Shown: positions 14,084 to 49,153, numbered from the stretch's first letter. The stretch: 64,000 nt of DNA from SAR324 cluster bacterium (GCA_028282885.1 JANQGX010000059.1:64906-128905), one strand, 5' to 3'. The notes: generated by a model not told the origin, from the letters alone. Numbers and translations: made by a program.

Positions 14084-14108
14084 TAATGGTTTAAAAGAAT
14101 GCTGATGA

Positions 14109-18509: not shown

Positions 18510-18561
18510 GAGAGTTCGAGATGGTTTTTCAGAAAAACACAATCGGCAGGGAATGACATAA

Positions 18562-18858
18562 ACCTATAAACTTGAAATTGAGCCGTTTCACAGGAATGGC
18601 GGCACTTTCTGGCTGGAAATCATGGCCAAGCTTGCCGAAGAGGATGGCATATTAAAGATTATTGGTGTGGTCCGCAATATTAACAAAATGAAAGTTTCGG
18701 AATTGGAACGTGAAAAACTGATTACCAAACTACGGAAAGCTTTGATGGAAAAAGAGAAGCTTCTGAAGGTGAATAACGGGGTACCCGGAATTAAAGATTG
18801 GAATATATCGGAAAAGGTGTTGCTCAATCGGAATAGAAGGTCATGGTTGGCGCGCTGA
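18562..18858 (+). pseudogene. Remnant of a PAS-domain sensor gene (C-terminal end of a PAS fold plus a coiled-coil linker); no start codon or N-terminal part
   Basis: The open frame from the stop at 18559-18561 reads TYKLEIEPFHRNGGTFWLEIMAKLAEEDGILKIIGVVRNINKMKVSELEREKL..., which has the typical terminal PAS strands (R.DG..FW.E....EDG...IGV.RDIT) and a coiled coil. There is no upstream coding sequence, and the stretch is overlapped by an antisense ORF. Confidence 0.4.
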
Positions 18859-19495
18859 GGCGAATGCCTGAGTTGTATGTGACCGTATCCTTGACGTTTA
18901 CCACAAAGACAAGAGCGGAGCCGTTTTGAACATCGATTTCGCTGGTAAGAATAAAATCTCCTGTTGTGCCCGTTTCAGCCTTTCCAAAGAGGTAGACAGC
19001 TTTTGTCGCTTCGGAAGAGTTGCTGTTACCACTGACTTCAACAGCCGCTTCACCCTTCACATCTCTATATGCCCCCACCAGATTGATGGTCGAGCCTATA
19101 GTGACCCTGCAGTATTTGTAAAGACCGGGAGCAACATCGTTTTCGGAATTAAAATCCCTGATTTCAGTTGAGGCAAGATTCTGGGTTACACCATCATCGT
19201 TTTCCCAAAGAGTGAATTTATCCTCTTCGCTATTACCGATTTCAACCTTGTAGAAGACGACGTTATATTCGGAGACAAGAATATCAATGATTTCAACGTC
19301 AGCGGACTGACTGCCCAGACGTGAAGTACCGGTGTCGGAGTCGGTGTAGTAGGTCGCCCTGGTTTTGAAGTTCACAGATGCCTGATCCGAATCGGTGGTG
19401 ACTTCCGAATCAGATTCTTTACAACCCGGCAATGAGAGAATCAAGACGATGAATAGGCATGTCGCTGCCAAAATGAAAAATGAAACCTTCTTCAT
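18824..19495 (-). CDS. Hypothetical lipoprotein (signal peptide plus lipobox LSLPGC)
   Basis: MKKVSFFILAATCLFIVLILSLPGCKESD..., followed by a mature domain rich in acidic and Thr residues. No known catalytic motif. Confidence 0.55.
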   Translation of the reverse strand: MKKVSFFILAATCLFIVLILSLPGCKESDSEVTTDSDQASVNFKTRATYYTDSDTGTSRLGSQSADVEIIDILVSEYNVVFYKVEIGNSEEDKFTLWENDDGVTQNLASTEIRDFNSENDVAPGLYKYCRVTIGSTINLVGAYRDVKGEAAVEVSGNSNSSEATKAVYLFGKAETGTTGDFILTSEIDVQNGSALVFVVNVKDTVTYNSGIRLSAPTMTFYSD

Positions 19496-19749
19496 TGATA
19501 TTCTATGCGATTAAGTTAATTTCTTCTAATATCCCACAATTCTTGTCCCCACTTTTTCACAGGTAAATCAGTTTGGCAAGTGATTCGAAAAGGGTCTAAA
19601 AACCGACGCCATCGATGTTTGAACAATAAAGTGGGTAACTTTGACTTCCAATAACGCAAACTGATGGGTTATGATGCAAACCAATGATATTGAACTCCAA
19701 TTTCTGTCAGCTTGACCTTTGACCAGGCAAGCTAATTGCTGCTTGAAAC

Positions 19750-20889
19750 ATGTCGATGAATCGTCCGGAATTATCCGTCATCAAATTGATTGTTAAGATT
19801 TTCGTAATCTGTTTGATTCTTTGTGCCTGCGACCAGAATGATTCGGGGGTGAACACCGATACGGAGCTTCGCATATTCTCCATGGTCCCGGATGATGGTG
19901 ATTCCGACATAGCTGCCAGCGGGGTGCTGCAGGTAACTTTCAACCAGTCCGTCAACCTGTCAACTGTTTCGAGTATCCGGGAAAACGGAACCTGTTCCGG
20001 GTCTGTTCAACTGTCTTCCGATAACTTTCAAAGTTGTATCGGACTTGACTATGCGGGTTTGACCGACAACGGTAACACCATCAGGGTTCCCTATCTGGTG
20101 GAATCGGATTCCCAATACAAGATCAGAATCAGTACCGGTATCAGGGCTGAAGAAGGGGGGAGCCTTGCTGAAGATTACTCAACCGAAACCGGTTTCACAA
20201 AAGCAGACAGCAACACCTGTGACCAAATCCCGCGGGAGCGCCTGATGGTTGCCGTCGTTTTCGGTCAGTCCAATTCGACCGATTCATCACCGGGAAGAAA
20301 AACTCTGAATCGTAATGTCTATATGATGGATTCGAACGGCCTTTGTTCCTATGCCTCGGATCCTATGTTATATAAACCGGTATTGGATCTGGGGTGTGTA
20401 TGGAGCAGACTGGGACCGAAAATCGTTTCGGCGGGACTGTATGACAATGTGCTTTTTATCTCTGTTGGTGTTGGGGGGACCTCCGTTTCGCTATGGGTTC
20501 CCGGAGCGCTGTATCATGATCGAATTACCGAGGCAATGGATCTGTTAGGTAATGCCGGCTTTTCCACTACCCATTTTCTCTGGCACCAGGGAGAATCTGA
20601 TCGATATTCCACCGCCGATGAATATAAAACAAACTTCAATTTGATGCTGGGGAGTATCAGAAGTCGACAACCGACAACACCTGTTTACGTATCCATCGCC
20701 AGCAGATGTGGAGGTGATCCCATTACACAAATCCAGCAGGCGCAAATGGATCTGGTGGATATTGAAAACTATGTTTTCCAAGGACCGAATACTGATACCC
20801 TGGGATTTTCTTACAGATATGACGGCTGCCATTTTCATGAAGGTGGATTGGAAGCACACGCTGATCTATGGATGGAGGTGCTGCAGTAA
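19750..20889 (+). CDS. Lipoprotein with an N-terminal Ig-like domain and a C-terminal SASA/SGNH-type carbohydrate O-acetylesterase domain
   Basis: Lipobox (LILCACDQ). GQSN motif (VVFGQSNSTD). WHQGESD block. DGCHFH catalytic Asp/His block. All are characteristic of the sialate-O-acetylesterase (SASA / DUF303) branch of SGNH hydrolases. Confidence 0.62.
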   Translation: MSMNRPELSVIKLIVKIFVICLILCACDQNDSGVNTDTELRIFSMVPDDGDSDIAASGVLQVTFNQSVNLSTVSSIRENGTCSGSVQLSSDNFQSCIGLDYAGLTDNGNTIRVPYLVESDSQYKIRISTGIRAEEGGSLAEDYSTETGFTKADSNTCDQIPRERLMVAVVFGQSNSTDSSPGRKTLNRNVYMMDSNGLCSYASDPMLYKPVLDLGCVWSRLGPKIVSAGLYDNVLFISVGVGGTSVSLWVPGALYHDRITEAMDLLGNAGFSTTHFLWHQGESDRYSTADEYKTNFNLMLGSIRSRQPTTPVYVSIASRCGGDPITQIQQAQMDLVDIENYVFQGPNTDTLGFSYRYDGCHFHEGGLEAHADLWMEVLQ

Positions 20890-21041
20890 AAAACGGAAAA
20901 TCAAACGGGTGAAAAATTGCAGTCATTCAACCACTTGTATCCATGCAAAAGGATGGTAGGTGACGATTTTTTAGTGTGAACAAAGGTACAATCCGACAAA
21001 ACCTATTTTAAGCTAGATCGCTTTTGGCAGGAAGAAAGATT

Positions 21042-22397
21042 ATGAGTAGATATCACCATGATTCTGACGGAGTCACCCTTTTTAGTCTGAAATACGTCGC
21101 CCGGCGGAAGAGCCGTGTGAATCTCTTTGGATTTCTGGTTGCTCTGTTGATGATATTTCCGGCATCCGAAATCGCCTTTGCAGATAACGGAGAATCCGTG
21201 AAAGCCATAGTCTTTTACAAACAGGACTGTCCCGATTGTAAGGCTCTGACACATGATATTCTGCCGGTTTTTAAAAAAAGGTATGGAGACGCTCTGAATA
21301 TCCTGACCGTGAACAATGGCGACCCGCGAGGAGGTGGACTCTATCTGTCAACCCTGCTTGCGATGAACTTATCCCTGACCGAGTCCCTTCCATTTGTGAT
21401 CGTCGGTGATGTTGTTCTAAAAGGTTCTGAGTCCGTTACCAGGGAGTTTCCCGCATTGGTTGAAGAGAGAATTCTCCAGAAGAAGACCGGGTGGCCGGAT
21501 ATTCCCGGGCTGGATAAAGTTTTGAAAGCGATTACCCAAATGAATCAAGAGGATCAGGCCTCCTGGTGGATCGCCGGAGAGGTTAACGAAATCCAGTATC
21601 TTTTGGCAGGTTTTGCCTACAGATATAACCATGATCCCCTTGCCAACCGTTATGCGGTTGTCGTGTTGTGCTGCCTGATCGTCGGTCTCGTGATCTCACT
21701 TTATCTCTTTTTTCGGAAGGAGAAGCGCCAACCCTGTATTTACCGTGCCGGTGTTTTAACCCTGCAATTGGTAGGTGTTTATGTGGCCTGGCAACTGGCC
21801 GAAATCAGCAACATTCTCTCCTCGCACAAGTCACTTTTGGGATCCTTTGAGGATCTGCTGGCGATTACTGTTTTTACAGGAATGCTGATATCTCTTCTGT
21901 TTTCCTTGTGGTCATTCCGGGGATCGAACAAGACACGAATTGCCATTTGGCAGATTCGAATTATTCCCCTTCTCTCCCTCATAGTTTTGACCGCAGCCGG
22001 ATACCTGCTGTATTCGGAGTTGAGTGGAGCGGAAGCCCAATGTGGTGCTGTCGGAGATTGCAACGCAGTGCAGCAGAGCCCGTACGCTAAGTTGTTTGGA
22101 TGGATTTCTGTTGCGGGATTCGGAATCATGGGTATCTTGCTTGTAACTTTGTTCTGGCTGCTTTACCAGTTCGGCCCTGCAAACAGGCAGTCCCTGTTCG
22201 GCCTGGGAATGTGGGGCGGTCTCTTGATCGGCGTGCTTTTTTTCACCTACCTTACCTTCTTGGAACCTTTCGTTATCGGTGCTACCTGCTTTTGGTGCCT
22301 TTCAGCAGCCATTGCCATGGTACTGGAATTTTACATTCTGACTCCCCTGGCAGGACAATCGTGGCATAAATTGAGAGAGCTTTATCGTCGTGCTTAG
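21042..22397 (+). CDS. Membrane thiol-disulfide oxidoreductase: N-terminal thioredoxin-like domain (CPDC) fused to a VKOR-family (vitamin K epoxide reductase-like) 5-TM domain
   Basis: Trx-like CxxC (FYKQDCPDCKAL). A VKOR loop Cys pair (AQCGAVGDCNAV). An in-membrane CxxC (ATCFWCLSAA), with multiple TM helices. The start was chosen at MSRYHH, which has a GGAAG RBS upstream. Confidence 0.6.
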   Translation: MSRYHHDSDGVTLFSLKYVARRKSRVNLFGFLVALLMIFPASEIAFADNGESVKAIVFYKQDCPDCKALTHDILPVFKKRYGDALNILTVNNGDPRGGGLYLSTLLAMNLSLTESLPFVIVGDVVLKGSESVTREFPALVEERILQKKTGWPDIPGLDKVLKAITQMNQEDQASWWIAGEVNEIQYLLAGFAYRYNHDPLANRYAVVVLCCLIVGLVISLYLFFRKEKRQPCIYRAGVLTLQLVGVYVAWQLAEISNILSSHKSLLGSFEDLLAITVFTGMLISLLFSLWSFRGSNKTRIAIWQIRIIPLLSLIVLTAAGYLLYSELSGAEAQCGAVGDCNAVQQSPYAKLFGWISVAGFGIMGILLVTLFWLLYQFGPANRQSLFGLGMWGGLLIGVLFFTYLTFLEPFVIGATCFWCLSAAIAMVLEFYILTPLAGQSWHKLRELYRRA

Positions 22398-22807
22398 ATA
22401 ATCGGCTTCAGATCTACCCCTTACCCCTTTTTTAGGCCTGGATTGAGTATTTCACCGATTACCGGAATGACCGCTAATCAATTTTGAGAATTAAGGATCA
22501 TCCAAAGATCGGCCAACTGGAGCCTCAACAATACAATCCTGTTTCAATTGACATGCAGTGAGGTTTGCCGCTATACATCGAAAACCCTTCAATCCCGAAG
22601 GTAATGTTACGGAATGATTTATTAGATGATGACAAAAATCGTCACCCCCATGAGTTTAAATGTCGACCTAATAGGTCATTTTGGTCATACTACTCTCTAA
22701 ACCTCGCCAGCACTAATTCGATGCTTCCAGGGAACGACCTCTTTTTCAACAGACAGTAAATCGCAAACTGATTTAAGACATCCGGTCAAATTCTCAAGCG
22801 AGTAAAC

Positions 22808-24703
22808 ATGCAGAATACTCTCAACTGGCACAATAACCGGCTTTCACGACTGCTTCTTGGTTATATTATCCTCTGTAGTTCCTTTTTTACACTGATCGGT
22901 ACAGCGGTCCAGCTTTACAGTGATTACAGATCCGATATCAAATCCATAGAGGGCGGCATCAGGCACATAGAAAAGGGATACCTGAAAACAATCTCCAGTA
23001 GTTTGTGGGCTTTGGATTCGGGGCAGATGAAAAACAGTCTTGAAGGAGCGTCCTATTTACCTGATATCCAGTATCTGGAAGTTCGAGAGCACAGAAACGG
23101 GGTGGAAAAGATTTTTGCCAGTTGGGGGGAGAGGATAGACCAACAACTGATAAAAAAAGATCTGCCCCTCTATTACGGAAATTCCGACAAGAAAATCGGA
23201 TCCCTGCTGGTAATTGCCAGTACGGACAAAGTGATGCAGAGGCTGAGAGCAAAATTGCTGCTGATTCTCCTAACCCAGGGGATCAAGACCTTTCTTGTTT
23301 CGCTCTGTATTTTGTTCATCTTCCATCGCTTGATTATGAAGCATCTAATCTCCATCACCGGTTATTTCAGCGCTTTTGATCTGAATAATCTGGATGCTCC
23401 TCTTGCCATCAAAAGGCGAATGTCCCGCCCCAGACAACCGGATCTGTTTGAATCCCTGGTCAATTCTATCAACCGCATGCGTGTGAGATTGAAGGAGAAT
23501 CTCAGTGCCAGAATTGACAACCAGTTAGAGTTGAACCGACTAAAGAATCAATTAAAGAATATTGTGGATTCCATGCCGGCCATTCTCATCGGCATCGATA
23601 ACAATGGTAAAGTAACCCACTGGAATCGTAGCGCCGAGGATGAAACAGGCAAACGTCCGGACGAAGTTGAGGGGAAACTCTTAATTGATGTCTTTCCTCC
23701 CCTGGGAGAGCGAACGGACTTTCTCAAAAAAGTTCTGGAACACTCCTATTCGGGGCGCAGTTATAGAATCAACAGGCAGGTTGAAGATAAAACAGTATTC
23801 TGGGATGTTATGGCATATCCTCTTGCAACAAACGGTGAGCAGGGTGTTGTGGTAAGAATCGAAGACATTACCGAGAAGGTAAGAATAGATCAGCTCATGA
23901 TTCAGACCGAGAAAATGGTTTCTGTCGGCGGAATTGCAGCGGGAATTGCCCATGAGATTAATAATCCTCTTTCTGTTGTCATCACCGGAATTCAGAACTC
24001 AATGAGAAGAATCAGACCGACCTGGAAGAAAAACCGCGAAGTGGCAGAGTCGATCAATGTGGATCTGGATGGCGTCAACGAGTATTTGGAGAAACGAGAG
24101 ATTTTTAAATACTTGAAGGGAGTGGAAGAGTCGGGGAAACGAGCTGCGAAAATCGTGTCCAATATGCTGAGTTTTAGTCGCAGATCCAGTACTCAATTCG
24201 CGCCGGTGGATCTGGAAAGTTTGGTGAACAACACAATCGAACTGGCCGTTAACGATTACGATCTGACTAAAAAATACGACTTCAAACACATCAAGCTGGT
24301 TAAAAACCTGGGGCCGGACCGGATAGAGTTCATGGGATCGGAAACCGAAATTGAACAGGTGTTATTGAACCTCTTGAAAAACTCGGCAGAAGCGATTTAC
24401 GAAGATGAGAAAAAAGATCAACCCCAAATCGGGATCTATGCCAAATCCGACGGCAGGAGAGTGCGCATTGAAATCGAAGATAACGGCCCCGGTATCGATA
24501 AATCAAAGCTCAAACGGATCTTTGAACCGTTTTACACGACTAAACCGGTAGGAAAAGGCACAGGATTGGGGCTTTCCGTTTCTTACCTGATTATTACCAA
24601 GAACCACAAGGGCAGCATGGAAGTGGAATCGGAGAAGGGGAGAGGAACCAAATTCATCATTCATCTCCCGTTGAATGTTGAGAAAGCTGCAATTCAAGGC
24701 TGA
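22808..24703 (+). CDS. Membrane sensor histidine kinase (periplasmic sensor, PAS, HisKA, HATPase_c)
   Basis: Two TM helices bracket an about 140-aa periplasmic domain. PAS domain (MPAILIGIDNNGKVTHWNRSAE...). H-box (GIAHEINNPLSVV). ATPase boxes (DNGPGID, GTGLGLSVSY). Confidence 0.85.
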   Translation: MQNTLNWHNNRLSRLLLGYIILCSSFFTLIGTAVQLYSDYRSDIKSIEGGIRHIEKGYLKTISSSLWALDSGQMKNSLEGASYLPDIQYLEVREHRNGVEKIFASWGERIDQQLIKKDLPLYYGNSDKKIGSLLVIASTDKVMQRLRAKLLLILLTQGIKTFLVSLCILFIFHRLIMKHLISITGYFSAFDLNNLDAPLAIKRRMSRPRQPDLFESLVNSINRMRVRLKENLSARIDNQLELNRLKNQLKNIVDSMPAILIGIDNNGKVTHWNRSAEDETGKRPDEVEGKLLIDVFPPLGERTDFLKKVLEHSYSGRSYRINRQVEDKTVFWDVMAYPLATNGEQGVVVRIEDITEKVRIDQLMIQTEKMVSVGGIAAGIAHEINNPLSVVITGIQNSMRRIRPTWKKNREVAESINVDLDGVNEYLEKREIFKYLKGVEESGKRAAKIVSNMLSFSRRSSTQFAPVDLESLVNNTIELAVNDYDLTKKYDFKHIKLVKNLGPDRIEFMGSETEIEQVLLNLLKNSAEAIYEDEKKDQPQIGIYAKSDGRRVRIEIEDNGPGIDKSKLKRIFEPFYTTKPVGKGTGLGLSVSYLIITKNHKGSMEVESEKGRGTKFIIHLPLNVEKAAIQG

Positions 24704-25784: not shown

Positions 25785-27044
25785 TCAGTTCGTTCCTTGA
25801 CGGGGGGAGTAGACGTCGTTTTTATTCCAGGTACCTGAGCCTCCCAGCAGATAAGCTTTGCCTTCAACAGTACTGCAGGTTGTATTGTAACGTTCGGCGG
25901 GCAACTGTTTTCCCTGACTCCAACTATTTGTATTCGGATCATATACCTCAACCGATGTTAACGCTCCTTTGCCTCCGAAAACATAGATCCTGCCGTCAAT
26001 AACGCAACCCGAGTGCGAATAGCGAGGAGTTGGCAGCGGTGCTTTGCGTGTCCATTTATTCCTTAATGGATCATACGCTTCAACCGAATCGAGGACTTTT
26101 TTACCGTAGCGACCTCCAATAAGGTAGATCCTCCTGTTGATAACATGACTTGAATGAGAAGTCCGCTTGGTCGGCATTGTGGTTCCTTTCCGCCAGGTAT
26201 CTGTTTTTGTATCATAAATCTCTATGCTGTCAGCTGCCTGACGGCCTCCGAACACGAATATCTCTTTTTTGACAACACTGGCGGAATGGTCATATCGCCT
26301 GGTGGGTATGGGACTCCCTAATATCGAACTGTCACTTTTGGGATCGTATATCTCGATTGGTCCAATGCCTCCTTCATGGTCGTGGTTGTGTCCGGCGATA
26401 ATGTATACTTTTTTTGATACAACCGAACTTGAATGATGGTCCCTGGCGTATTTGAGCAGGGATCGTCTTTCCCAGCGATTCCTGTCCGGATGATATACCT
26501 CCACCGAGTTGATGTAATGTTTGCGCCATCCTCCTATAACATATATTTTATCCTTAACGGTGTTGCTTGAGGCATTGATCTTGGAAACGAGCATAGGGGC
26601 TTTTTCCTCCCAGGAACCTTCAATGAGGGTCTCGTCTGTCGTTAACTTCTTTCGTTGCGGATCCTTGATGACAATGACCTTCTCTGTAAATCCGTCTTCA
26701 GTTAGAAAAAATCGGATCTTTTTCGTCGGGATCCCTTCTTTCTGTGTAAATACCGAGTAGGTTCCCGCAGGACGGGAGTGATACCTGTCTCCCTTGAATC
26801 CTTTGCGATGGGAATAAACACGCCCGTAACCAAAAGCATCAGTTCGAAGTTTTTCCTCTTTACGGGTATTCAGATCGATCAGGGATAGGGTGGCGTTTTC
26901 CACCGCTTCCTTATGGTACATCACCTTTATCGAGAAGGTTCCGTGTTGTTTGAGGGCGGTGTCTTCCGGCAGAACAACAGCCGTTCCAACGGCAGCCATG
27001 GTGGCAAACACGGCAATACCGTATTGCTGTATTTTCTTGTTCAT
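25785..27044 (-). CDS. Secreted Kelch-repeat beta-propeller protein with an N-terminal transthyretin/carboxypeptidase-regulatory-like beta-sandwich
   Basis: Signal peptide (GIAVFATMAAVGTAVV). About six Kelch-type repeats (IYVIGGW, VYIIAGH, IFVFGGR, IYLIGGR, IYVFGGK, AYLLGGS, each followed by ...VE.YDP..N.W). Its ATG overlaps the TGA of the upstream gene (ATGA). Confidence 0.75.
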   Translation of the reverse strand: MNKKIQQYGIAVFATMAAVGTAVVLPEDTALKQHGTFSIKVMYHKEAVENATLSLIDLNTRKEEKLRTDAFGYGRVYSHRKGFKGDRYHSRPAGTYSVFTQKEGIPTKKIRFFLTEDGFTEKVIVIKDPQRKKLTTDETLIEGSWEEKAPMLVSKINASSNTVKDKIYVIGGWRKHYINSVEVYHPDRNRWERRSLLKYARDHHSSSVVSKKVYIIAGHNHDHEGGIGPIEIYDPKSDSSILGSPIPTRRYDHSASVVKKEIFVFGGRQAADSIEIYDTKTDTWRKGTTMPTKRTSHSSHVINRRIYLIGGRYGKKVLDSVEAYDPLRNKWTRKAPLPTPRYSHSGCVIDGRIYVFGGKGALTSVEVYDPNTNSWSQGKQLPAERYNTTCSTVEGKAYLLGGSGTWNKNDVYSPRQGTN

Positions 27045-30000
27045 TCGATCTTCGGTAGTTTCGATTGAAGGGGTTCCGGTAATTCCCTGTTTTCATTTTG
27101 CTGCAGTTGTATCGCCTGGCGACGGACAGCCGGTCGGATTTTGGCCTTGTCCAGGTGTTTCCAGATACTGAGCCAAGCCAGTTGGCGGACGTCATATTTC
27201 GCCCGGTATTCAATCGATGACCAGCCCACCAGATACACTGCTGAAGTATCTGTAATTTCAAAGAAATAAACCCAACAGGCCGGATCCTTCAGAATATGCT
27301 CATCGACCTCTGACACCGCTTTTAACAATACCGCTTTTACCTTTTCGGGATCGTGTTCGGGGTCGATATAGACTGAAATCCAGTCATTGTACATTTCACT
27401 GGGCAGACTGAAATTATGGATAAAGGATTCGGCCACGGTTGAATTGGGAATGGCAAAGATACAACCCAGTTTGTCCTCGAATCTGGTCGTTCTCCAGTTG
27501 ATATCTATGACCCGTCCTTCAGAATAGCTGCCGACTTTTACCCAGTCTCCTACATGGTAAGGGCGCTCAAGATTCAAAGCGATTCCGGAAAAAATATTCG
27601 CGATATTTAACTGGATGGCGAGACCGATGATCATCATCAGGATTCCGGAAGTCGCGATCAGCCCGGTTATTTTGAAGTCAAAGACAAAGGCGATGATACC
27701 AAAACTGGTCAACAGATAGATCAGGAAAGCCGTAAAACCCCTAATCAACCCCGGGACTTTTCTGTCAGAACGATACTCAATCGTATCAAAAATATTCTTC
27801 TGTATAACATCGTTCAGCATCTTGGCCGGAATCACCCACCACAGAACATCAAAAAATTTGGTGATAGAATCCAGGGTTGTTTCAGACACAGTGCCCAAAA
27901 GTGACTGGATCAAAGTCGTTTCCACCAAAATCAGAAGCAGAAAGGAGAGCAGGATACGGACAAAGCCCCCCATCCTGACCAGGCGCCTTTCCATTTCAAT
28001 CCGCTTTTTCTTGGTAATTCGGATAAACTGTTGCCTGCTGTCATCGTTATCCTCCAGCCAGTAAGAAAAACCCGTCTTTCGTTTCTTTTTGGTCGGCGTA
28101 GCCGGATACATCCGGAAGGCTATTTCTCCGGCTAGCTCCCCTTTAAGCCAGAAGAAAGCAGACAGCAGAAAAAGGGTGATCAGGGTCAGGTATCCCGAAA
28201 GCGGTTCGGGAATCAGAAGCCTGGGGCTGAATCGTATCTTGCTGACCTGAATCTTTGCGGTAAACCTTGAATGTTCAATGGTTTTGTCAATGTGGTCAAT
28301 ATACTTGATGTTTCCCCAAGTTCTTTTCCTTGAGATATCATGATAATACGAAGCGTCAGTGATATTCCAGCCGTGCAGAGAGTTCAGGATAGGGCCTGCC
28401 TCTTTGCCCTCCGGCCATACTTTGCCAAGCATTCCCAACTCATCCTTGATAAATTGCAGCTCTCTTCTTGTCTTATTCTTATGGCGAAAGGCAACCCCAA
28501 GCACATGGGCCCTGTACACATCGCTTGGGATAAAATCCGCTCGGAAGGTTCCTTCAACCTGGTAACGTCGGTAAACGGACTGATCGATGATTTCTTCAGC
28601 AACCGGTGGTTTCAGCTTTATCGGTTTCAACGAATTCAGAAACTCCAGAGCAGTAATATCAATGTCCCCCTGATTATACCTGAACCAGAGATAAAAATTG
28701 GCCTTAAAAGTAAGATTTTCTTCGTCCAGGCTGCTGAGTTCGATGATTTCGATTCCGGAATGCACCACACTGGTTTTATAAAAATACTCTTTCCCGACTT
28801 TGATAATCCTGCCCTCATCCAGGTCTTCCTCCAACGTACCGATCTCTTTTATATCTTTTATGATTTGAAACTGGTGAGGGGCGGGAATCAGTTGGGTTCC
28901 TTTATATATCCCCATAGCGATCGGTTTGAAAGAATTTCCTTTTTCATCAAAAAAGTTTAGACCGGTCATCCCCAGTAGTGAGTCCTTAACATTGGACAAT
29001 CCGGATATATACTCCCTTAACTTGTTGCGATCTGACTTAATAGATTCCCGGTTACCTTTCAGTTCATACTGCCGGATTCCCTCGGAGATGATCATTGCCG
29101 CATCATGGGCGTAAGCCGTATCCCATTTGGGATCAACCTCAAACCGTTTGCTGAAGCTCCTCTTGAATCGTTGGGCATTTTCATTGGCAAGTTCGTACGA
29201 AAAGGCAGACACTGCATATAACCCATCGGTATAATACCCGGGATGCATTTTTTCCTTGGGCAGGTCCTGAAACCAGAGGGTCAGATTAGTCTGGGAAAAG
29301 CCAACCGGCGTAATCACGGGATTGGGAATTTGCTCATCTTTAAGATGTTGTATTATCTGAACACTCTCATACGGATGGGTCAGCAGGATCAATGGTAGAC
29401 TGGTATCATTGGTTTTTTTGATCTCTTTGATCATCGTTATGGCGTTCTCGGTCCGGGCTTCGGATTGCACCTCCCACCGGTGTTTGATCGGTACATCCAG
29501 GGTGCGAAGGGTTTTCTGAAATTCAATGACCATCTCCTGACTGGACGAGTCCGAGCCGGCAACCAACATCACCGCTTTCGGTTCAAAGACATTGTTGATG
29601 TAATGAGCAATGAACCGTGATTGCAGGTTTAAACTGAAAACCGTCCTAAAAAGCCATTTATTATCTTCGACAGTTTCCTGCCCCATGGCGGAAGGCGTGA
29701 TGATTGGTATCCCGGCTTCCTTGTATATCTCTCCTGCTGCAAGTGTACAGGTATCACTCTGGTGTCCGATGACTGCTATCGCCCTCCCCTCTTCCACAAT
29801 TTTAGACGCGATTTTTACAGCGGTCACCGGGTCATTGTGGTCATCGTACACATCCAGTCTCAGTTCATTGCTGTGAATTCCTCCCTGCTGGTTAAGATTC
29901 CGGATATATAGCCGAGTCGCATTCACGTAGCTATCCTGCTTCTCGTCAGGTCCGATGACAGCTATATGTAGCGCTGATCTGTCTGCCGAATAGAAGTGCT

Positions 30001-30076
30001 TGATCCAGAATAGTGGCTGAATCAGGATAATCAGGGTGATGACGATTTTTACAGGTATACTTTTATAGTTAATCAT
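27041..30076 (-). CDS. Fusion protein: periplasmic type-1 (LivK/Peripla_BP_6-like) ligand-binding domain, a domain of unknown function, and a C-terminal MscS-family mechanosensitive channel domain
   Basis: Signal/TM at the N-terminus. A LivK-like PBP (ALHIAVIGPDEKQD...AIAVIGHQSDTC...GIPIITPSA). TM helices at about residues 640-800. The MscS pore helix and beta-domain (IIGLAIQLNIANIFSGIALNLERPYHVGDWVKVGSYSEGRVIDINWRTTRFE). ATGA overlaps on both sides. Confidence 0.75.
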   Translation of the reverse strand: MINYKSIPVKIVITLIILIQPLFWIKHFYSADRSALHIAVIGPDEKQDSYVNATRLYIRNLNQQGGIHSNELRLDVYDDHNDPVTAVKIASKIVEEGRAIAVIGHQSDTCTLAAGEIYKEAGIPIITPSAMGQETVEDNKWLFRTVFSLNLQSRFIAHYINNVFEPKAVMLVAGSDSSSQEMVIEFQKTLRTLDVPIKHRWEVQSEARTENAITMIKEIKKTNDTSLPLILLTHPYESVQIIQHLKDEQIPNPVITPVGFSQTNLTLWFQDLPKEKMHPGYYTDGLYAVSAFSYELANENAQRFKRSFSKRFEVDPKWDTAYAHDAAMIISEGIRQYELKGNRESIKSDRNKLREYISGLSNVKDSLLGMTGLNFFDEKGNSFKPIAMGIYKGTQLIPAPHQFQIIKDIKEIGTLEEDLDEGRIIKVGKEYFYKTSVVHSGIEIIELSSLDEENLTFKANFYLWFRYNQGDIDITALEFLNSLKPIKLKPPVAEEIIDQSVYRRYQVEGTFRADFIPSDVYRAHVLGVAFRHKNKTRRELQFIKDELGMLGKVWPEGKEAGPILNSLHGWNITDASYYHDISRKRTWGNIKYIDHIDKTIEHSRFTAKIQVSKIRFSPRLLIPEPLSGYLTLITLFLLSAFFWLKGELAGEIAFRMYPATPTKKKRKTGFSYWLEDNDDSRQQFIRITKKKRIEMERRLVRMGGFVRILLSFLLLILVETTLIQSLLGTVSETTLDSITKFFDVLWWVIPAKMLNDVIQKNIFDTIEYRSDRKVPGLIRGFTAFLIYLLTSFGIIAFVFDFKITGLIATSGILMMIIGLAIQLNIANIFSGIALNLERPYHVGDWVKVGSYSEGRVIDINWRTTRFEDKLGCIFAIPNSTVAESFIHNFSLPSEMYNDWISVYIDPEHDPEKVKAVLLKAVSEVDEHILKDPACWVYFFEITDTSAVYLVGWSSIEYRAKYDVRQLAWLSIWKHLDKAKIRPAVRRQAIQLQQNENRELPEPLQSKLPKIE

Positions 30077-30831
30077 GGTTTACCGGTTTCTTGTTGCTTT
30101 TCTTTCATCAGTTTTTTTAGCTCTTTTTTGACAGATTTTTCCACTTCAACAAACCGCATTCCAAATCCCTTCGGAATATCTGTTTTTTGCCCTTTGTTGA
30201 CCCAGATAATCCTTGCTTCGATTTCAACCGTATGATTCTCTTCCAGGGTTAACTGCAATCTGAAAGGTTCATTCTGCTGTACGGTCTCCTCACTGATCAG
30301 GTAAAGTCCGCTTTTTGACAGATCGTGGGTGAACCCTTCAATCGTTTGGCGACTGTTTTCAATCACTGCTTTCAAGGCGGTTTTAACCCGGGGATCGTGT
30401 TTCCACCATTGCAGTCTGGGATGGAAAAAGGGTGCTCGCAGCTCCCTTGATAGCAGTGAACCGACAATAACGAGGCTGGATGTTATAAAAATTGTGTACT
30501 CCCAGGTAGTGAATGCGGTTTCAGCTCCAGTGAAAACCGAAATGCTCACCGATATTATCACCGCGCCAAAATACGCCAGGGACAGTATCCAACCGATCAG
30601 GTGAGATACAAATATCGCAATGGCGATAAAGGGAGAAACAAGGACGAATAACGTGTTTTGAATATCAAAGAGCCAGCTCCAATGAGTAAGACTTAAGTAT
30701 CTATAATCATTAACCGTAAAGCTGTAAGCAATAAACAGTACCGGAGAGAAAGCGTGAATTAACGCCAAAAGGTTTATTGTGAAGGGTTTGCTGGTAACTC
30801 CTTTTAACGCTGCTTGTTTGTTCATAGCCAT
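30073..30831 (-). CDS. 4-TM membrane protein with a C-terminal PilZ-like (candidate c-di-GMP-binding) domain
   Basis: Four hydrophobic helices in the N-terminal 130 aa. The cytoplasmic C-terminal domain has an R-rich segment (SRELRAPFFHPRLQ) and the DxSxxG motif (HDLSKSGLYL) typical of PilZ. Its stop overlaps the start of the PBP-MscS gene. Confidence 0.45.
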   Translation of the reverse strand: MAMNKQAALKGVTSKPFTINLLALIHAFSPVLFIAYSFTVNDYRYLSLTHWSWLFDIQNTLFVLVSPFIAIAIFVSHLIGWILSLAYFGAVIISVSISVFTGAETAFTTWEYTIFITSSLVIVGSLLSRELRAPFFHPRLQWWKHDPRVKTALKAVIENSRQTIEGFTHDLSKSGLYLISEETVQQNEPFRLQLTLEENHTVEIEARIIWVNKGQKTDIPKGFGMRFVEVEKSVKKELKKLMKEKQQETGKP

Positions 30832-30981: not shown

Positions 30982-31464
30982 TTAGTCCGTTTTTTTAAAG
31001 TTGAACTTATACAAAACGTACGCGTTTCGACCGGTCAGTGGGGGAGGAGGGAATCGCCAGGTTTTAATTTTGGATATCAGGCATGCCTCAAGGACGGGAT
31101 GATTGATCTGGGAATTGACAATTTCCGGTGAAAGGGCTTTCCCATCCGCATCCACCTGCCAGTCGATCGAAATCACACCGTCGGTTGTCTGTGGTGGCGG
31201 AGTTACTTCAAGAAAGCGCTTGTAGCAGCCGTTCATCTCCTTCCATTTTTTAGCAATGGTGTTGCGGACTTCGTTTTTAATGTACGGCGACACGTCTGAT
31301 TTTCTATTGTTTCCGTTTTCCATTTGGCGGGGTGTCGTTTGATAGACAACCGCGGTTTGCGACTCGCGAAAAACGATCACGGCCAGAAGGACAATCACCG
31401 TTGCCAACAGGGCGACAATCAAAATCGTTTTAACTCTTTCTTGCGGATGTTGGTTTTTGTTCAT
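30982..31464 (-). CDS. Membrane-anchored hypothetical protein (single N-terminal TM, Pro-rich linker, C-terminal TonB-C/AgmX-like domain?)
   Basis: TM (ILIVALLATVIVLLAVIVF), a PPPQ segment and a C-terminal about 70-aa domain. The resemblance to the TonB-C fold is weak. Confidence 0.3.
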   Translation of the reverse strand: MNKNQHPQERVKTILIVALLATVIVLLAVIVFRESQTAVVYQTTPRQMENGNNRKSDVSPYIKNEVRNTIAKKWKEMNGCYKRFLEVTPPPQTTDGVISIDWQVDADGKALSPEIVNSQINHPVLEACLISKIKTWRFPPPPLTGRNAYVLYKFNFKKTD

Positions 31465-33892: not shown

Positions 33893-36800
33893 CTATTGAT
33901 AGACGTACACCGCCCCGGAACTGGAACTGTTGTTGTCGCTGCTGGCGGTGGTGCCATTGGTGATAGTGGCTTGGTCGCTGTCTTCAAAATCTGCTCCCAC
34001 CGCTAGGGTTCCATTAGATAGGAACACGGTTGTTCCAAATTTGTCGGTAGCCTCGCTGTTGGCGGCCTTTATATAGGACTGCTGACTCCAGACAGTACCG
34101 TTGCGAGCATAGACGTACACCGCCCCGGAACTGGGACTGTTGTTGTCGCTACTGGCGGTTGTACCGCCGGTGATAGTGGTTTGGCTGCTGTCTTCATTTG
34201 GTGCTCCTACGACCAGAGTGTCGCCGGATAGGGATACGGCATTTCCGAAACGGTCGCCAGCGTTGTTGTTGGAAGCCTTAATATATGCTTGTTGGCTCCA
34301 AGAGGTACCGCTACGGGTATAGACATATACCGCTCCGGAATCCGCGCTGCTGTCGTTGCTGCTGGCAGCAGTGCCGTTGGTAACTATAGTCTGGTTGCTG
34401 TCTTCCAAGTAAGCTCCCACGGCCAGAGTGTCTCCGGACAGGGAAACGGCATTCCCGTAATAGTCATTGGTGCTGCTGTTAGCGGCCTTGATATAGGCTT
34501 GCTGGCTCCAGTTGGTCCCGCTGCGAGTATAGACATACACTGCCCCGGAGTTGGAATTGCCGTCGTCGCTGCTTGCGGTGGTACCGTTGGTGATCGTAGT
34601 CTGGTTACTGTCTTCTTGATCGACTCCTACGGCCAGAGTATCGCCGGAGAGGGAAACGACCTTTCCGAATTCGTCATAGGCGTCGTTATTGGCGGCCTTG
34701 ATATAGGCCTGCTGGCTCCAGTCTGTTCCGCTGCGGGAATAGACGTATATTGCCCCGGCACTCGTATTGCTGTTGTTGCTGTCGGCGGTGGTGCCGTTGG
34801 TAATCGTTGTCTGGTTGCTGTCTTCCTCATGAGCTCCTACGGCCAGGGTGTCGCCGGATAGCGAAACAGCTCTACCGAAATAGTCATTGGTCTCGTTGTT
34901 GGCGGCTTTGATGTAGGCCTGCTGGCTCCAGTCTGTTCCGCTGCGGGAATAGACGTACACCGCCCCGGATTGCAGATTGCCGTCGTTGCTGCTTGCGGTG
35001 GTGCCGTTGGTGATTGTAGTCTGGTTGCTGCTTTCGCACCAGGCTCCCACAGCCAGGGTGTCGCCGGATAAGGAAACCGCGTGTCCGAAACGGTCGTTGT
35101 TGTCGTTATTGACGGCCTTGATGTAGGCCTGCTGGCTCCAGTCGGTTCCGCTGCGGGAATAGACGTACACCGCCCCGGATTGCGGATTGCTGTTGTTGCT
35201 GCTTGCGGCGGTGCCGTTGGTAATCGTAGTCTGGTTGCTGGCTTCTCTCTCAACTCCCACGGCCAGGGTATCACCGGATAAGGAAAGGGCCTGTCCAAAC
35301 TGGTCCCAGTCTTCACTGTTGGCGGCCTTGATAAAGGCCTGTTGGCTCAGACTGGCGGTGACGGTGACGGTGACGGTATAATTCTGGGTCGAGCTGTCCC
35401 CAGCCGTAACGATATAGGTAACGGCACTGCTGAAGTCGTTGGCGGTGGAACCGCTGGTCTGGTTGGTCCCACCCACTGCAATCGAAGATCCGGTGGTTGT
35501 GAAGGTGGCCACCAGGGCAGTGACGTCCGTTCCGGAAGGAACCGTGGCCGAAATATTGGTGCCGGAGACGGTGGCGGTCACATCCGAAGAGAGGGCACTG
35601 TTGTCGGCAGCGAGGAAAGAGAAGGCCGTGATCTCCTTGGCAGATGACGAAGCCGTGATAACGGTGACGGTATAATTCTGGGTCGAGTTGTCCGCAGCCG
35701 TGACAGTATAGGTAACGGCGCTGCTGAAGTTGTTGGCGGTGGAACCGCTGGTCTGGTCGGTCCCACCCACAGCAACCGAAGATCCGGTGGTTGTGAAGGT
35801 GGCCACCAGGGCAGTGACGTTCGTTCCGGAAGGAACCGTGGCCGAAATATCGGTGCCGGAGACGGTGGCGGTTACATCCGAAGAGAGGGCGCTGTTGTCG
35901 GCAGCGAGAAAGGAAAAAGCCGTGATCTCTTTGTCGGATACCGAGGCCGTGGAAACGGTGACGGTATAATCTTGGATCGAGCCGTCCGCAGCCGTGACGG
36001 TGTAGGTAACGGCACTACTGAAGTCGTTGGCTGTGGAGCCGCTGGTCTGGTCGGTACCATCCACCGCAACCGAAGATCCGGTGGTGCTAAAGATGGCCAC
36101 CAAGTCGGTGACGTCAGTTCCGAAAGGAACCGTGGCTGATATGTCGGTGCCGGAGACGGTGGCGTTTACATCCGAAGAGAGGGCGCTGTTGTCGGCAGCG
36201 AGAAAGGAAAAAGCCGTGATCTCTTTGGCGGATACCGAGGCCGTGGAAACGGTGACGGTATAATCCCGTGTTGTGTTGTCCGCGGCAGTGACAGTATAGG
36301 TAACGGTGCTGCTGAAGTCGTTGGCTGTGGAACCGCTGGTCTGGTCGGTACCGTCCACCGCAACCGAAGATCCAGTGGTGCTAAAGGTGGCCACCAGGGC
36401 GGTGACGTCTGTTTCGAAAGGAACCGTGGCTGATATGTCGGTGCCGGAGATGGTGGCTGTTACATCCGAAGAGAGGGTGCTGTTGTCGGCAGCGAGAAAG
36501 GAAAAAGCCGTGATCTTTTTGGCGGATACCGAGGCCGTGGAAACGGTGACGGTATAGTCCTGTGTTGTATTGTCCTCAGACGTAACGGTATAGATAACGG
36601 CGCTGCTGAAGTCGTTGGCGGTGGAACCGCTAGTCTGGTCGGTACCGTCCACCGCAACCGAAGATCCGGTGGTGCTAAAGGTGGCCACCAGGGCGGTGAC
36701 GTCTGTTTCGAAAGGAACTGTGGCTGATATGGCGGTGCCGGAGATGGTGGCGGTTACATCCGATGAAAGGGTGCTATTGTCGGCAGCGAGAAAAGAAAAG

Positions 36801-49143: not shown

Positions 49144-49153
49144 ATTTCAACTC

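What the first reader, a model, noticed from the sequence alone, without database searches (positions are those of the whole stretch)
27041..30076. MscS-family channel with an N-terminal type-1 periplasmic binding protein domain (1011 aa)
The sequence shows a LivK/Peripla_BP_6-like Venus-flytrap domain with a signal peptide and the motif IAVIGHQSDT..GIPIITPSA. After it comes a domain of about 200 aa with no recognisable motif, then TM helices ending in the canonical MscS TM3 pore helix (GLAIQLNIANIFSGIAL) and a beta-domain. MscS-superfamily members with appended sensory domains have been proposed to be ligand-gated, but such PBP fusions remain functionally uncharacterised. This is a clean candidate for a ligand-gated MscS.
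Basis: partly seen in the sequence, partly recalled or inferred. Interest (0 to 1): 0.6.

Follow-up and report, generated by a model that had tools for sequence, protein, structure and literature searches.

The report
Neurotransmitter-receptor sensor domain fused to MscS channel
This 1011-residue bacterial membrane protein joins three modules: a periplasmic binding-protein domain, the extracellular domain of a pentameric ("Cys-loop"-type) ligand-gated channel, and the pore and cytoplasmic cage of the heptameric mechanosensitive channel MscS, a widespread combination I found described in none of the papers I searched.

Summary
The ORF is real: window 27041-30076, minus strand, 1011 aa. All quoted motifs are present. 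The N-terminal LivJ-type PBP domain and the C-terminal MscS pore helix and beta-domain are confirmed.

The main new result concerns the "200-aa domain with no recognisable motif". It is the extracellular beta-sandwich of a pentameric ligand-gated ion channel (pLGIC), plus the pre-M1 segment and the start of M1.
- The first ~615-640 residues are 28-30% identical to bacterial PBP-pLGIC receptors.
- An AlphaFold model (pLDDT 85.6) gives only GLIC, ELIC, GABA-A and AChBP among the 50 listed Foldseek hits (best E 2.5e-10).

So a PBP+pLGIC-ECD sensor has had its pentameric pore replaced by an MscS module. The pLGIC Pro-loop coupling motif was lost with the swap: 29/30 in pLGIC-type relatives, 1/87 in MscS-type.

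The family is large, with about 79 of 141 top cluster representatives. It occurs in Desulfobacterales, giant sulfur bacteria and Leptospiraceae. About half carry a C-terminal cNMP domain.

This protein's subclade has lost the LivJ amino-acid-binding residues. It sits in a conserved, translationally coupled PilZ-channel-Kelch cassette.

Most likely function: an MscS-type channel modulated from the periplasm. Stoichiometry (5 versus 7) is the open question. Searched papers yielded no prior description.

The parts
29987..30058 (-). N-terminal hydrophobic helix (aa 7-30). Signal peptide or uncleaved signal anchor that puts the following domains in the periplasm.
   Evidence: Hydropathy peak at aa 7-25. 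AF2 helix 7-30. No good AxA-type cleavage site in the sequence.
28901..29974 (-). Type-1 periplasmic binding protein (LivJ/Peripla_BP_6) Venus-flytrap domain, aa ~35-392, with a remodelled ligand pocket.
   Evidence: Pfam PF13458 E 4e-26. Foldseek of the full model: 4q6b/4mlc, target TM-score 0.87-0.89. LivJ alignment and pocket columns.
28238..28894 (-). pLGIC-type extracellular beta-sandwich (aa ~395-613), including the beta1-beta2 'FYLWFRY' signature. The Pro-loop motif is lost.
   Evidence: 28-30% identity to PBP-pLGIC proteins over aa ~11-613/639. AF2 pLDDT 85.6. All 50 listed Foldseek PDB hits are pLGICs or AChBP, best E 2.5e-10. Pro-loop motif in 1/87 M-type versus 29/30 L-type.
28109..28219 (-). 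Pre-M1 and M1-like first transmembrane helix (aa ~620-656), with the conserved M1 proline (P623). This is the last segment with detectable pLGIC homology.
   Evidence: hhalign of the M-type TM region against the L-type TMD: only beta10 to the M1 Pro aligns (27 columns, probability 93%). Alignment block. Hydropathy 620-646. AF2 helices 624-643 and 646-656.
27899..28108 (-). Lys/Arg-rich cytoplasmic loop and second TM helix 'TMb' (aa ~657-726), with the nearly invariant E719. TMb returns the chain to the periplasm.
   Evidence: AF2 helix 678-726. Hydropathy 698-731. E719 conserved in at least 90% of 86 sequences.
27566..27883 (-). MscS core TM1-TM2-TM3 (aa ~732-837). The pore helix is GLAIQLNIANIFSGIAL, with gate equivalents M815 (MscS L105) and L819 (L109).
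   Evidence: phmmer alignment to E. coli MscS 57-241, E 1e-14. AF2 helices 732-770, 776-798 and 803-837. G818, L819, Q822, N824, N827, F829, S830 and G831 are nearly invariant.
27146..27544 (-). MscS cytoplasmic beta-domain and alpha/beta-domain (aa ~845-977). There is no C-terminal cNMP domain in this protein.
   Evidence: PF00924 E 1.5e-16 and PF21082 at 17.7 bits, below its cut-off. AF2 secondary structure. No PF00027 hit.
30073..30831 (-). Upstream membrane-anchored PilZ-domain gene. Its stop overlaps the channel start (ATGA). Conserved partner within the subclade.
   Evidence: PF07238 E 3e-15. ATGA overlap. Same neighbour next to the 66%, 56% and 46% identical homologs.
25785..27044 (-). 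Downstream Kelch beta-propeller gene with an N-terminal hydrophobic anchor or signal. Its start overlaps the channel stop (ATGA). Conserved partner within the subclade.
   Evidence: Kelch_1 E 7e-59. ATGA overlap. Translation. Conserved in L081, L083 and L084 at 62%, 47% and 35% identity.

Best explanation
The gene encodes a three-tier chimeric channel subunit.

Shown (architecture):
- A signal or anchor helix.
- A periplasmic type-1 PBP domain.
- A pLGIC-type extracellular beta-sandwich with its pre-M1 segment and the start of M1.
- A cytoplasmic loop and a return helix (TMb).
- A complete MscS module: TM1-TM3 pore, beta-domain and alpha/beta-domain.

Inferred (origin): it arose from a bacterial PBP-pLGIC receptor whose four-helix pentameric pore domain was replaced, just after the start of M1, by an MscS channel. 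The ancestral MscS may have been of the bCNG kind, because about half the family still carries a C-terminal cNMP domain.

Inferred (mechanism):
- The MscS part assembles the usual heptameric pore and cage.
- The PBP and beta-sandwich tiers sit above the membrane, as the periplasmic rings of MscK and MscM do.
- A periplasmic signal changes the PBP/beta-sandwich conformation or packing.
- That change is passed through the covalent beta10-M1 link into the outer TM paddle (M1, TMb, TM1, TM2). It shifts the open-closed equilibrium of the TM3 gate (M815/L819).
- The channel is thus ligand-gated, or ligand-tuned in its tension sensitivity.

Inferred (this subclade): the PBP pocket has lost the amino-acid-binding residues. 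The signal is therefore probably not a free alpha-amino acid. It may involve the co-translated periplasmic Kelch protein. The membrane PilZ protein may supply the cytoplasmic second-messenger input that the fused cNMP domain supplies in other members.
For: Architecture:
- Pfam and PDB sequence matches for PBP and MscS.
- BLASTP to the PBP-pLGIC proteins P0089, P0105, P0096 and P0101 over query aa ~11-613/639, E 1e-83 to 1e-98.
- Those relatives reach Pfam gathering scores for Neur_chan_LBD (P0105, 26.7 against 26) and Neur_chan_memb (P0089, 28.5 against 28.1).
- AF2 of aa 396-662 has pLDDT 85.6. All 50 listed Foldseek PDB hits are pLGIC or AChBP chains (1102 matches at E<=1e-3).
- The full-length AF2 model (pLDDT 87) gives the 5-TM topology needed to place the ECD outside and the MscS cage inside.

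Domain swap:
- Profile-profile homology stops at the M1 proline.
- The Pro-loop motif, which in pLGICs contacts the M2-M3 loop, is kept in 29/30 pLGIC-type relatives and in 1/87 MscS-type.

Selection on the whole chimera:
- 86 aligned members share nearly invariant residues in every tier.
- 386 relatives were found in species-representative genomes. The best 80 all match the query from about aa 1-49 to about aa 980-1011, except L055, which is cut by a contig end.
- About 79 of 141 new top cluster representatives have PBP-ECD-MscS, with or without cNMP.

Pore competence: equivalents of the MscS gate and hinge residues are retained (L105->M815, L109->L819, N117->N827, G121->G831).

Periplasmic rings that take part in MscS-like gating are documented for MscK and MscM (review PMC13591265).

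Subclade specifics: pocket columns. The PilZ-channel-Kelch cassette has ATGA overlaps and is conserved down to 46% identity.
Against: - No functional datum exists for any member.
- MscS assemblies are heptamers and pLGIC ECDs form pentameric rings. It is not known whether the beta-sandwich can form a 7-ring, stays unassembled, or forces a different stoichiometry. No multimer prediction or model coordinates were available.
- Loss of the Pro-loop motif could mean the beta-sandwich no longer transmits anything and is only a spacer.
- bCNG channels, the closest MscS relatives by C-terminal architecture, gave no osmotic protection in E. coli, and the review records no structural data that would show what role cyclic nucleotides play in their gating.
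- The query's PBP pocket is degenerate, so it may bind nothing.
- The NJ tree of the PBP+ECD region does not cleanly separate MscS-type from pLGIC-type. One MscS-type sequence nests in the pLGIC clade and three deep MscS-type branches lie outside. A single swap event is therefore not proven.
Confidence: 0.58

Rival explanations
1. Plain PBP-gated MscS. A LivK-like domain binds a branched-chain or other alpha-amino acid and opens the MscS pore. The middle region is an unimportant linker.
For: The PBP fold and the MscS module are confirmed. Most of the wider family keeps the LivJ S79, T102, Y150 and acidic-226 equivalents. An amino-acid ligand is therefore plausible for those other members.
Against: In this protein and its subclade (P0001-P0007) the equivalents are D/N, M/L/R, absent, and V or other residues. 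The first binding loop is also shortened by 6 residues. The 'linker' is a conserved pLGIC ECD with nearly invariant residues (W464, F479, F511, D545, S603).
Confidence: 0.1
2. It is primarily an osmotic safety valve. The periplasmic PBP+ECD tiers are only a structural crown that sets tension threshold and hysteresis, as in MscK and MscM. There is no ligand control.
For: A complete MscS core with gate residues is present. In MscK and MscM the periplasmic rings influence gating and hysteresis. The coupling Pro-loop motif is lost and the query's PBP pocket is degenerate.
Against: Two ligand-binding folds are maintained over hundreds of divergent clusters. Canonical PBP pocket residues are kept in most members. 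Genomes carry several paralogs, up to three among the loci kept for one assembly. That fits diversified sensors better than redundant valves. Many members add a cNMP domain.
Confidence: 0.15
3. It is a non-conducting receptor. The MscS module serves as an oligomeric scaffold and transducer. It relays periplasmic information to cytoplasmic partners (cNMP domain, PilZ protein) rather than passing ions.
For: [quoted passage not shown] This subclade has a conserved membrane PilZ partner.
Against: The pore-lining helix is among the most conserved parts of the family: G818, L819, Q822, N824, N827, F829, S830 and G831 are each conserved in at least 90%. That conservation argues for a functional pore.
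Confidence: 0.1
4. The assembly is pentameric. The pLGIC-type ECD dictates five-fold symmetry, and the MscS TM3 and cage adapt to it.
For: All known pLGIC ECD rings are pentamers (established knowledge). ECD core residues are shared with true pLGIC relatives.
Against: Every E. coli MscS-like structure summarised in the review has seven-fold architecture, held by the beta and alpha/beta domains, which are intact here. The ECD interface element that docks on the pLGIC pore was lost.
Confidence: 0.07

Closest known systems
Bacterial PBP-I-fused pLGICs (ART-LGIC / Pro-loop receptors with N-terminal PBP-I domain; Tasneem et al. 2004, PMC549065)
   Same: Same N-terminal ~615-640 residues: anchor helix, type-1 PBP, pLGIC beta-sandwich, pre-M1 and the M1 proline. 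Identity is 28-30%, E down to 1e-98. Both types occur in the same lineages, and both occur in Desulfonema magnum (P0096, L023).
   Different: The M1-M4 pore domain is replaced by TMb plus a full MscS module. The Pro-loop motif YP[FL]DxQ is lost. The expected symmetry of the pore module is 7, not 5.
E. coli MscS, and five-TM MscS-like channels such as YnaI
   Same: TM1-TM3, pore helix, beta-domain and alpha/beta-domain align with MscS 57-241 (E 1e-14) and with YnaI (E 2e-13). Like YnaI, there are two extra TM helices N-terminal to the core.
   Different: The first extra helix derives, at least at its start, from pLGIC M1. About 590 periplasmic residues of ligand-binding folds precede it. The G113 kink residue is Leu here.
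MscK / MscM (MscS-like channels with large periplasmic ring domains)
   Same: A large periplasmic domain sits on top of an MscS-type TM domain. In MscK and MscM that domain forms a ring whose dilation or disassembly accompanies gating. This is the best structural analogy for how the periplasmic tiers could act.
   Different: The MscK/MscM periplasmic domains are helical bundles and the channels have 11 TM helices. Here the periplasmic part is PBP plus a beta-sandwich, with 5 TM helices and an N-terminal anchor. Sequence similarity is restricted to the MscS core.
[quoted passage not shown] 2010, cited in PMC13591265)
   Same: About half of this family carries the same MscS + C-terminal cNMP_binding arrangement: 44 of 87 listed, and 46 of about 79 new MscS-type representatives.
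   Different: The query itself lacks the cNMP domain. bCNG channels as described lack the PBP+pLGIC-ECD periplasmic module.
DeCLIC (pLGIC with an extra N-terminal periplasmic domain)
   Same: It is a prokaryotic example of an accessory periplasmic tier stacked on a pLGIC ECD. That tier appears to accelerate gating (abstracts listed).
   Different: DeCLIC keeps the pLGIC pore and is pentameric. The abstracts read do not describe its N-terminal domain as a type-1 PBP. There is no MscS module.

Membership tests
MscS superfamily | Pore-lining TM3 helix with the conserved Gly/Ala-rich pattern and hydrophobic gate | tested here: met
   phmmer alignment to E. coli MscS 57-241, E 1e-14. L105->M815, L109->L819, N117->N827, G121->G831. 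Residues are nearly invariant in the family.
MscS superfamily | Cytoplasmic beta-domain following TM3 | tested here: met
   PF00924, 60.7 bits against a cut-off of 20.2, E 1.5e-16.
MscS superfamily | C-terminal alpha/beta-domain of the cage | tested here: inconclusive
   PF21082 scores 17.7 bits, below its cut-off of 21. The PDB alignment runs to MscS residue 241, and the AF2 secondary structure at 910-977 fits.
MscS superfamily | Homoheptameric assembly and gating by membrane tension | not testable with these tools
   Only monomer prediction was available. No coordinates or multimer modelling.
Type-1 periplasmic binding proteins (LivJ/LivK, Peripla_BP_6) | Two-lobe Venus-flytrap fold | tested here: met
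   PF13458 E 4e-26. Foldseek 4q6b/4mlc, target TM-score 0.87-0.89, E 1e-21.
Type-1 periplasmic binding proteins (LivJ/LivK, Peripla_BP_6) | LivJ-type alpha-amino-acid anchoring residues (S79, T102, Y150, Y202, E226; roles recalled from the LivJ/LBP structural literature) | tested here: not met
   Query has D108, M131, no 'YG', T, and V at the aligned positions, plus a 6-aa deletion in the first loop. Family majority: S 72/86, T or S 71/86, consensus 'YG' and 'PD'. The C-lobe positions were placed by sequence context, not by structure.
Pentameric ligand-gated ion channels (Cys-loop / Pro-loop receptors) | Extracellular beta-sandwich ligand-binding domain | tested here: met
   AF2 pLDDT 85.6. 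All 50 listed Foldseek hits are GLIC, ELIC, GABA-A, GlyR, GluCl or AChBP. There is homology to proteins that reach the Pfam Neur_chan_LBD and Neur_chan_memb thresholds. Pfam listed no Neur_chan_LBD hit for the query at E<=0.01, and the A1 profile found nothing in PDB sequences.
Pentameric ligand-gated ion channels (Cys-loop / Pro-loop receptors) | Pro-loop (Cys-loop) motif [FYW]P[FL]DxQ in the beta6-beta7 loop | tested here: not met
   Present in 29/30 pLGIC-type relatives and in 1/87 MscS-type. The query has 'FIPSDVYRAH'.
Pentameric ligand-gated ion channels (Cys-loop / Pro-loop receptors) | Four-helix M1-M4 transmembrane domain with M2 lining the pore | tested here: not met
   Only pre-M1 and the start of M1 are alignable (hhalign, 27 columns). 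Downstream is an MscS module. The protein is therefore not a pLGIC; it contains a pLGIC-derived sensor.
bCNG channels | [quoted passage not shown] | tested here: not met
   The query has no PF00027 hit, and the protein ends ~30 aa after the alpha/beta-domain. Relatives such as P0005 have it (E 3e-20).

The most novel reading that the evidence does not exclude
A natural chimera in which a Cys-loop-receptor-type extracellular domain, with a PBP on top, controls a heptameric MscS pore. Either a pLGIC-type ECD works in a seven-membered ring (or as unassembled protomers), or an MscS pore works as a pentamer. Both would break a symmetry rule held to be universal for its superfamily. It would also be the first MscS-family channel gated from the outside by a chemical signal. 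The family is expanded in giant, filamentous and multicellular bacteria (Thiomargarita, Beggiatoa relatives, Desulfonema, Ca. Magnetomorum), where chemo-electrical signalling would be of special interest.
Probability: 0.35. Interest if true: 0.9.

Novelty: new variant of a known kind. Interest (0 to 1): 0.78.

Why it matters
pLGICs and MscS channels are two of the best-studied channel superfamilies. They have unrelated folds, different symmetries (5 and 7) and different stimuli (ligand and membrane tension).

A large, conserved natural family that bolts the pLGIC sensor onto the MscS pore raises three points:
- The pLGIC extracellular domain would be a portable sensor module rather than one tied to its own pore.
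- It offers a natural test of how ECD motions are coupled to a foreign transmembrane domain once the Pro-loop/M2-M3 interface is gone.
- It gives the long-discussed idea of ligand-gated MscS-like channels a concrete, testable candidate. A cultured source organism exists: Desulfonema magnum encodes both the MscS-type and the pLGIC-type versions.

It also corrects database names for hundreds of proteins now called "ABC transporter substrate-binding protein" or [quoted passage not shown].

Tried and rejected
- hmmsearch of the ECD+M1 profile (A1) against PDB sequences found nothing, even at E<=10. The link to solved pLGICs rests on fold, and on intermediate sequences that reach the Pfam thresholds, not on a direct sequence match.
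- A search for conserved neighbours found none of the window's flanking genes in the 79 distant loci, apart from two weak histidine-kinase matches. The PilZ/Kelch cassette is confined to the query's subclade.
- I tried to decide whether TMb and the rest of M1 descend from pLGIC M1/M2. hhalign gave no signal beyond the M1 proline. A custom pLGIC-TMD HMM hit a few MscS-type proteins, but mostly through the beta10/M1 part. This is left open.
- An NJ tree of the PBP+ECD region gave no clean MscS-type versus pLGIC-type split under midpoint rooting. Three apparent 'pLGIC-type' sequences inside MscS clades are short (644-766 aa) and one is named partial, so they are probably truncated. A single origin is plausible but unproven.
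- Organism identification failed. The window's genome was not recovered among the GTDB representative genomes (best hit 37% identity). The cluster look-up gave no names. The named hits for the neighbouring aldehyde:ferredoxin oxidoreductase are mostly Deltaproteobacteria/Thermodesulfobacteriota (with Chloroflexota and Actinobacteria) at ~55-61% identity.
- Eight literature searches and three papers read found no description of a pLGIC-ECD/MscS or PBP/MscS fusion.
- A gene-fusion or misassembly artefact was rejected. The identical protein is held under NCBI and Logan sources, three contigs carrying it were read, and many full-length orthologs exist.

Full report
**Observation**

Window 27041-30076 contains one uninterrupted 1011-codon ORF on the minus strand. 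The finding gave the right coordinates but no strand. The motifs IAVIGHQSDT, GIPIITPSA and GLAIQLNIANIFSGIAL are all present.

Pfam hits:
- Peripla_BP_6, aa 49-365, E 4e-26.
- ANF_receptor.
- The MscS beta-domain PF00924, aa 825-890, E 1.5e-16.
- A sub-threshold hit to the MscS C-terminal domain.

NCBIfam gives partial matches to LivJ-type binding proteins and to MscS, MscK and MscM. Sequence search of the PDB matches E. coli MscS residues 57-241 (E ~1e-14), YnaI, and LivJ/LivK.

The gene is real. The identical protein is held under NCBI and Logan sources, and the look-up read three contigs that carry it. Full-length relatives are abundant.

**The 'unknown' middle domain**

The database search returned two kinds of relatives:
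- Proteins matching the whole query. These have PBP plus MscS Pfam hits, many with an extra cNMP_binding domain.
- Proteins of ~735-830 aa matching only the first ~60% of the query. Their precomputed Pfam hits include the neurotransmitter-gated channel families PF02932 and PF02931.

Evidence that the middle domain is a pLGIC extracellular domain:
- BLASTP aligns the query from aa ~11 to aa 613-639 with these proteins at 28-30% identity, E 1e-83 to 1e-98.
- Re-scanning them with Pfam, P0105 reaches the gathering score for Neur_chan_LBD (aa 417-596) and P0089 reaches it for Neur_chan_memb. They are therefore the PBP-I-fused prokaryotic pLGICs first described by Tasneem et al. (PMC549065).
- An AlphaFold2 model of query aa 396-662, built on a 42-sequence alignment, has mean pLDDT 85.6. 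It is an all-beta sandwich followed by a long helix.
- Foldseek against the PDB returns only pLGICs and acetylcholine-binding proteins among the 50 listed hits: GLIC, ELIC, GABA-A, GlyR, GluCl and AChBP. The best E-value is 2.5e-10, and 1102 matches have E<=1e-3.
- The beta1-beta2 signature reads 'LTFKANFYLWFRY' in the query. The pLGIC-type relatives have 'DFYLWFRF'.
- A direct profile search of PDB sequences found nothing. The assignment therefore rests on fold plus intermediate sequences.

**Where the swap is**

Alignment of 120 relatives shows that MscS-type ('M') and pLGIC-type ('L') proteins stay alignable through beta10, the pre-M1 segment and the conserved M1 proline (query P623). Profile-profile comparison of the regions downstream of beta9 aligns only these 27 columns (probability 93%) and nothing further.

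The pLGIC Pro-loop motif [FYW]P[FLIMV]Dx[QEH] lies in the beta6-beta7 loop. From established pLGIC structural knowledge, this loop docks on the M2-M3 loop of the pore domain. The motif is present in 29 of 30 L-type proteins but in only 1 of 87 M-type proteins. The sensor thus lost its signature coupling element together with its original pore.

**Topology and the MscS module**

Hydropathy and the full-length AlphaFold2 model (pLDDT 87, 86-sequence alignment) give the following layout:

| Element | Residues |
|---|---|
| N-terminal helix | 7-30 |
| PBP | 35-392 |
| Beta-sandwich | 395-613 |
| M1-like helix | 624-656 |
| Lys/Arg-rich cytoplasmic loop | ~657-677 |
| Helix TMb | 678-726 |
| MscS TM1 | 732-770 |
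| MscS TM2 | 776-798 |
| MscS TM3 | 803-837 |
| Beta-domain, then alpha/beta-domain | 845-977 |

Five TM helices after the periplasmic part is the odd number needed to put the ECD outside and the MscS cage inside.

In the HMMER alignment to E. coli MscS, the gate residues L105 and L109 correspond to M815 and L819. N117 and G121 correspond to N827 and G831, while the G113 kink residue is Leu. The pore helix is among the most conserved stretches of the family. The same alignment shows a nearly invariant Glu (E719) in TMb and a WW pair in TM1.

The TMb-TM1 hairpin has the same in-out-in topology as the pLGIC M2-M3 hairpin. It is the obvious candidate for the new contact surface under the beta-sandwich. 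This last point is inference.

**The PBP pocket**

Foldseek on the full model confirms the LivJ fold: 4q6b/4mlc, target TM-score 0.87-0.89. Using the HMMER alignment to LivJ (2liv/1z15), the residues I recall from the LivJ and leucine-binding-protein literature as anchoring the ligand's alpha-carboxylate and alpha-amino groups compare as follows:

| LivJ residue | Wider family | Query and nearest relatives (P0001-P0007) |
|---|---|---|
| S79 | S in 72/86 | D or N |
| T102 | T or S in 71/86 | M, L or R |
| Y150 | consensus 'YG' | 'YG' absent |
| E226 | consensus 'PD' | V in P0001-P0003, other residues in P0005/P0007 |

The first binding loop ('GPMSG...') is also six residues shorter in the subclade. 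An amino-acid ligand is plausible for most of the family but not for this protein.

**Family size and distribution**

- A scan of one genome per species found 386 relatives. The best 80 (32-37% identity) all match the query from about aa 1-49 to about aa 980-1011, except L055, which is cut by a contig end.
- Those 80 hits fall into 79 loci, which I tallied from the record titles: 32 Desulfobacterales and relatives (Desulfonema, Desulfamplus, Desulfatirhabdium), 29 Thiotrichaceae/giant sulfur bacteria and other Gammaproteobacteria (Thiomargarita, Beggiatoa relatives, Thioploca, Marithrix), 11 Leptospiraceae/Spirochaetota, and 7 others (Cloacimonetes, Calditrichaceae, Magnetococcales and unclassified).
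- Among those loci a single assembly carries up to three copies.
- Ca. Magnetomorum proteins are also in the family.
- An exhaustive HMMER search with the ECD profile over 1.84 billion cluster representatives gave 1912 hits at E<=1e-3 and 621 at E<=1e-30.
- I classified the 141 new top representatives with HMMs built here. Fifty are PBP-ECD-pLGIC-TMD and about 79 are PBP-ECD-MscS, of which 46 also have a cNMP domain.

The MscS-type is thus at least as diverse as its pLGIC-type sister. An NJ tree of the PBP+ECD region groups nearly all L-type sequences together but is not cleanly bipartite. One swap event is plausible but not shown.

**Gene context**

The channel gene overlaps its upstream and downstream genes by ATGA at both ends.
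- Upstream is a protein with several hydrophobic N-terminal segments and a C-terminal PilZ domain. DLSKSG is present, and KHDPR stands where RxxxR is expected.
- Downstream is a Kelch beta-propeller with an N-terminal hydrophobic anchor or signal.
- The same PilZ-channel-Kelch order is found next to the 66%, 56% and 46% identical homologs, although their outer flanks differ.
- It is not found next to the 42% homolog or in the 79 distant loci.

The subclade in which this cassette was found (P0001-P0003 and P0006) lies within the group whose PBP pocket is remodelled. This suggests, without proving, that the Kelch protein takes part in periplasmic sensing. The PilZ protein might stand in for the cNMP domain, but the 46% homolog has both.

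**Mechanism proposed**

- Shown: the domain order, the topology, the origin of the sensor, and the conservation of the pore.
- Inferred: heptameric MscS-type assembly; a periplasmic PBP/ECD crown analogous to the MscK/MscM rings, whose dilation or disassembly accompanies gating (PMC13591265); and transmission of a periplasmic conformational change through the beta10-M1 link into the TM paddle, shifting the TM3 gate equilibrium.

The main unknown is how a domain that always forms five-membered rings fits a seven-fold pore. From memory only, and not checked here: the isolated GLIC ECD was reported to crystallise as a hexamer (Nury et al. 2010). If so, the ring geometry is not rigidly fixed.

**Comparison and novelty**

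The protein passes the sequence-testable MscS criteria and the PBP fold criterion. It fails two of three testable pLGIC criteria (Pro-loop, M1-M4 pore). It lacks the cNMP domain that defines bCNG. It is therefore an MscS-superfamily member carrying a pLGIC-derived sensor, not a pLGIC.

Searches of the held literature found PBP-pLGIC fusions (PMC549065) and bCNG, MscK and MscM (PMC13591265). They found no mention of a pLGIC-ECD or PBP fused to MscS:
- The 2026 review of MscS-like gating diversity contains neither 'ligand' nor 'pentameric'.
- The 2016 pLGIC inventory trimmed extraneous terminal domains and does not mention MscS.
- No paper combines the two Pfam names.

Source databases name these proteins 'ABC transporter substrate-binding protein', 'branched-chain amino acid transport system substrate-binding protein' or 'mechanosensitive ion channel'.

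I rate the finding as a new variant of known kinds, a new combination of known modules. Interest is 0.78, because either outcome of the 5-versus-7 question would surprise specialists, and the family makes ligand control of MscS-type channels directly testable.

Noticed in passing
window 25785-27044 (-) and 30073-30831 (-); loci L081, L083, L084: A membrane-anchored PilZ gene and a Kelch beta-propeller gene with an N-terminal anchor flank the channel, with ATGA overlaps at both junctions. The three-gene order is conserved next to the 66%, 56% and 46% identical homologs, but not in distant relatives. The PilZ domain has DLSKSG but KHDPR in place of RxxxR.
   Followed up: partly
locus L084 (ENA ERZ27315536 k141_206748), 708-4217 (+) and 5580-8477 (-): Two paralogous PBP-ECD-MscS genes lie on one contig in convergent orientation, with a Kelch-like gene between them. 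One has a cNMP domain (1169 aa) and one does not (965 aa). An integrase-like (rve) gene follows.
   Followed up: no
loci L002-L080: The family is concentrated in giant, filamentous or multicellular bacteria (Thiomargarita, Beggiatoa relatives, Thioploca, Marithrix, Desulfonema) and in Leptospiraceae; Ca. Magnetomorum members appear among the proteins. Among the kept loci a single assembly has up to three paralogs. Desulfonema magnum (cultured, complete genome) encodes both the MscS-type (L023) and a pLGIC-type relative (P0096).
   Followed up: partly
window 33893-36925 (-): A 1010-aa FG-GAP-repeat protein lies in a stretch that is GC-richer than its surroundings (52.6% against ~45%). It gives odd low-level hits (COX7B, allophycocyanin beta) that look like repeat or composition artefacts.
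   Followed up: no
window 47428-51778 (-): Phosphate ABC transporter permeases of unusual length: a PstC-like protein of 874 aa and a PstA-like protein of 571 aa. The canonical permease part occupies only the C-terminal portion of each, so both have large unexplained N-terminal extensions.
   Followed up: no
window 6765-24703: The surrounding window is dense in signal-transduction genes: a 960-aa MCP, several PAS/CHASE5 histidine kinases, hybrid kinases and a sigma-54 response regulator. There is also an aldehyde:ferredoxin oxidoreductase at 41077-42942, which points to an anaerobe. The organism could not be identified; it was not recovered among the GTDB species representatives.
   Followed up: partly
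window 30982-31464 (-): A small protein has an AgmX/PglI (GltG-like, TonB_C-related) C-terminal domain, typical of myxobacterial gliding-motility proteins. It lies just upstream of the PilZ-channel-Kelch cassette. The matching gene in L001 is the same sequence. It is not conserved next to homologs.
   Followed up: no
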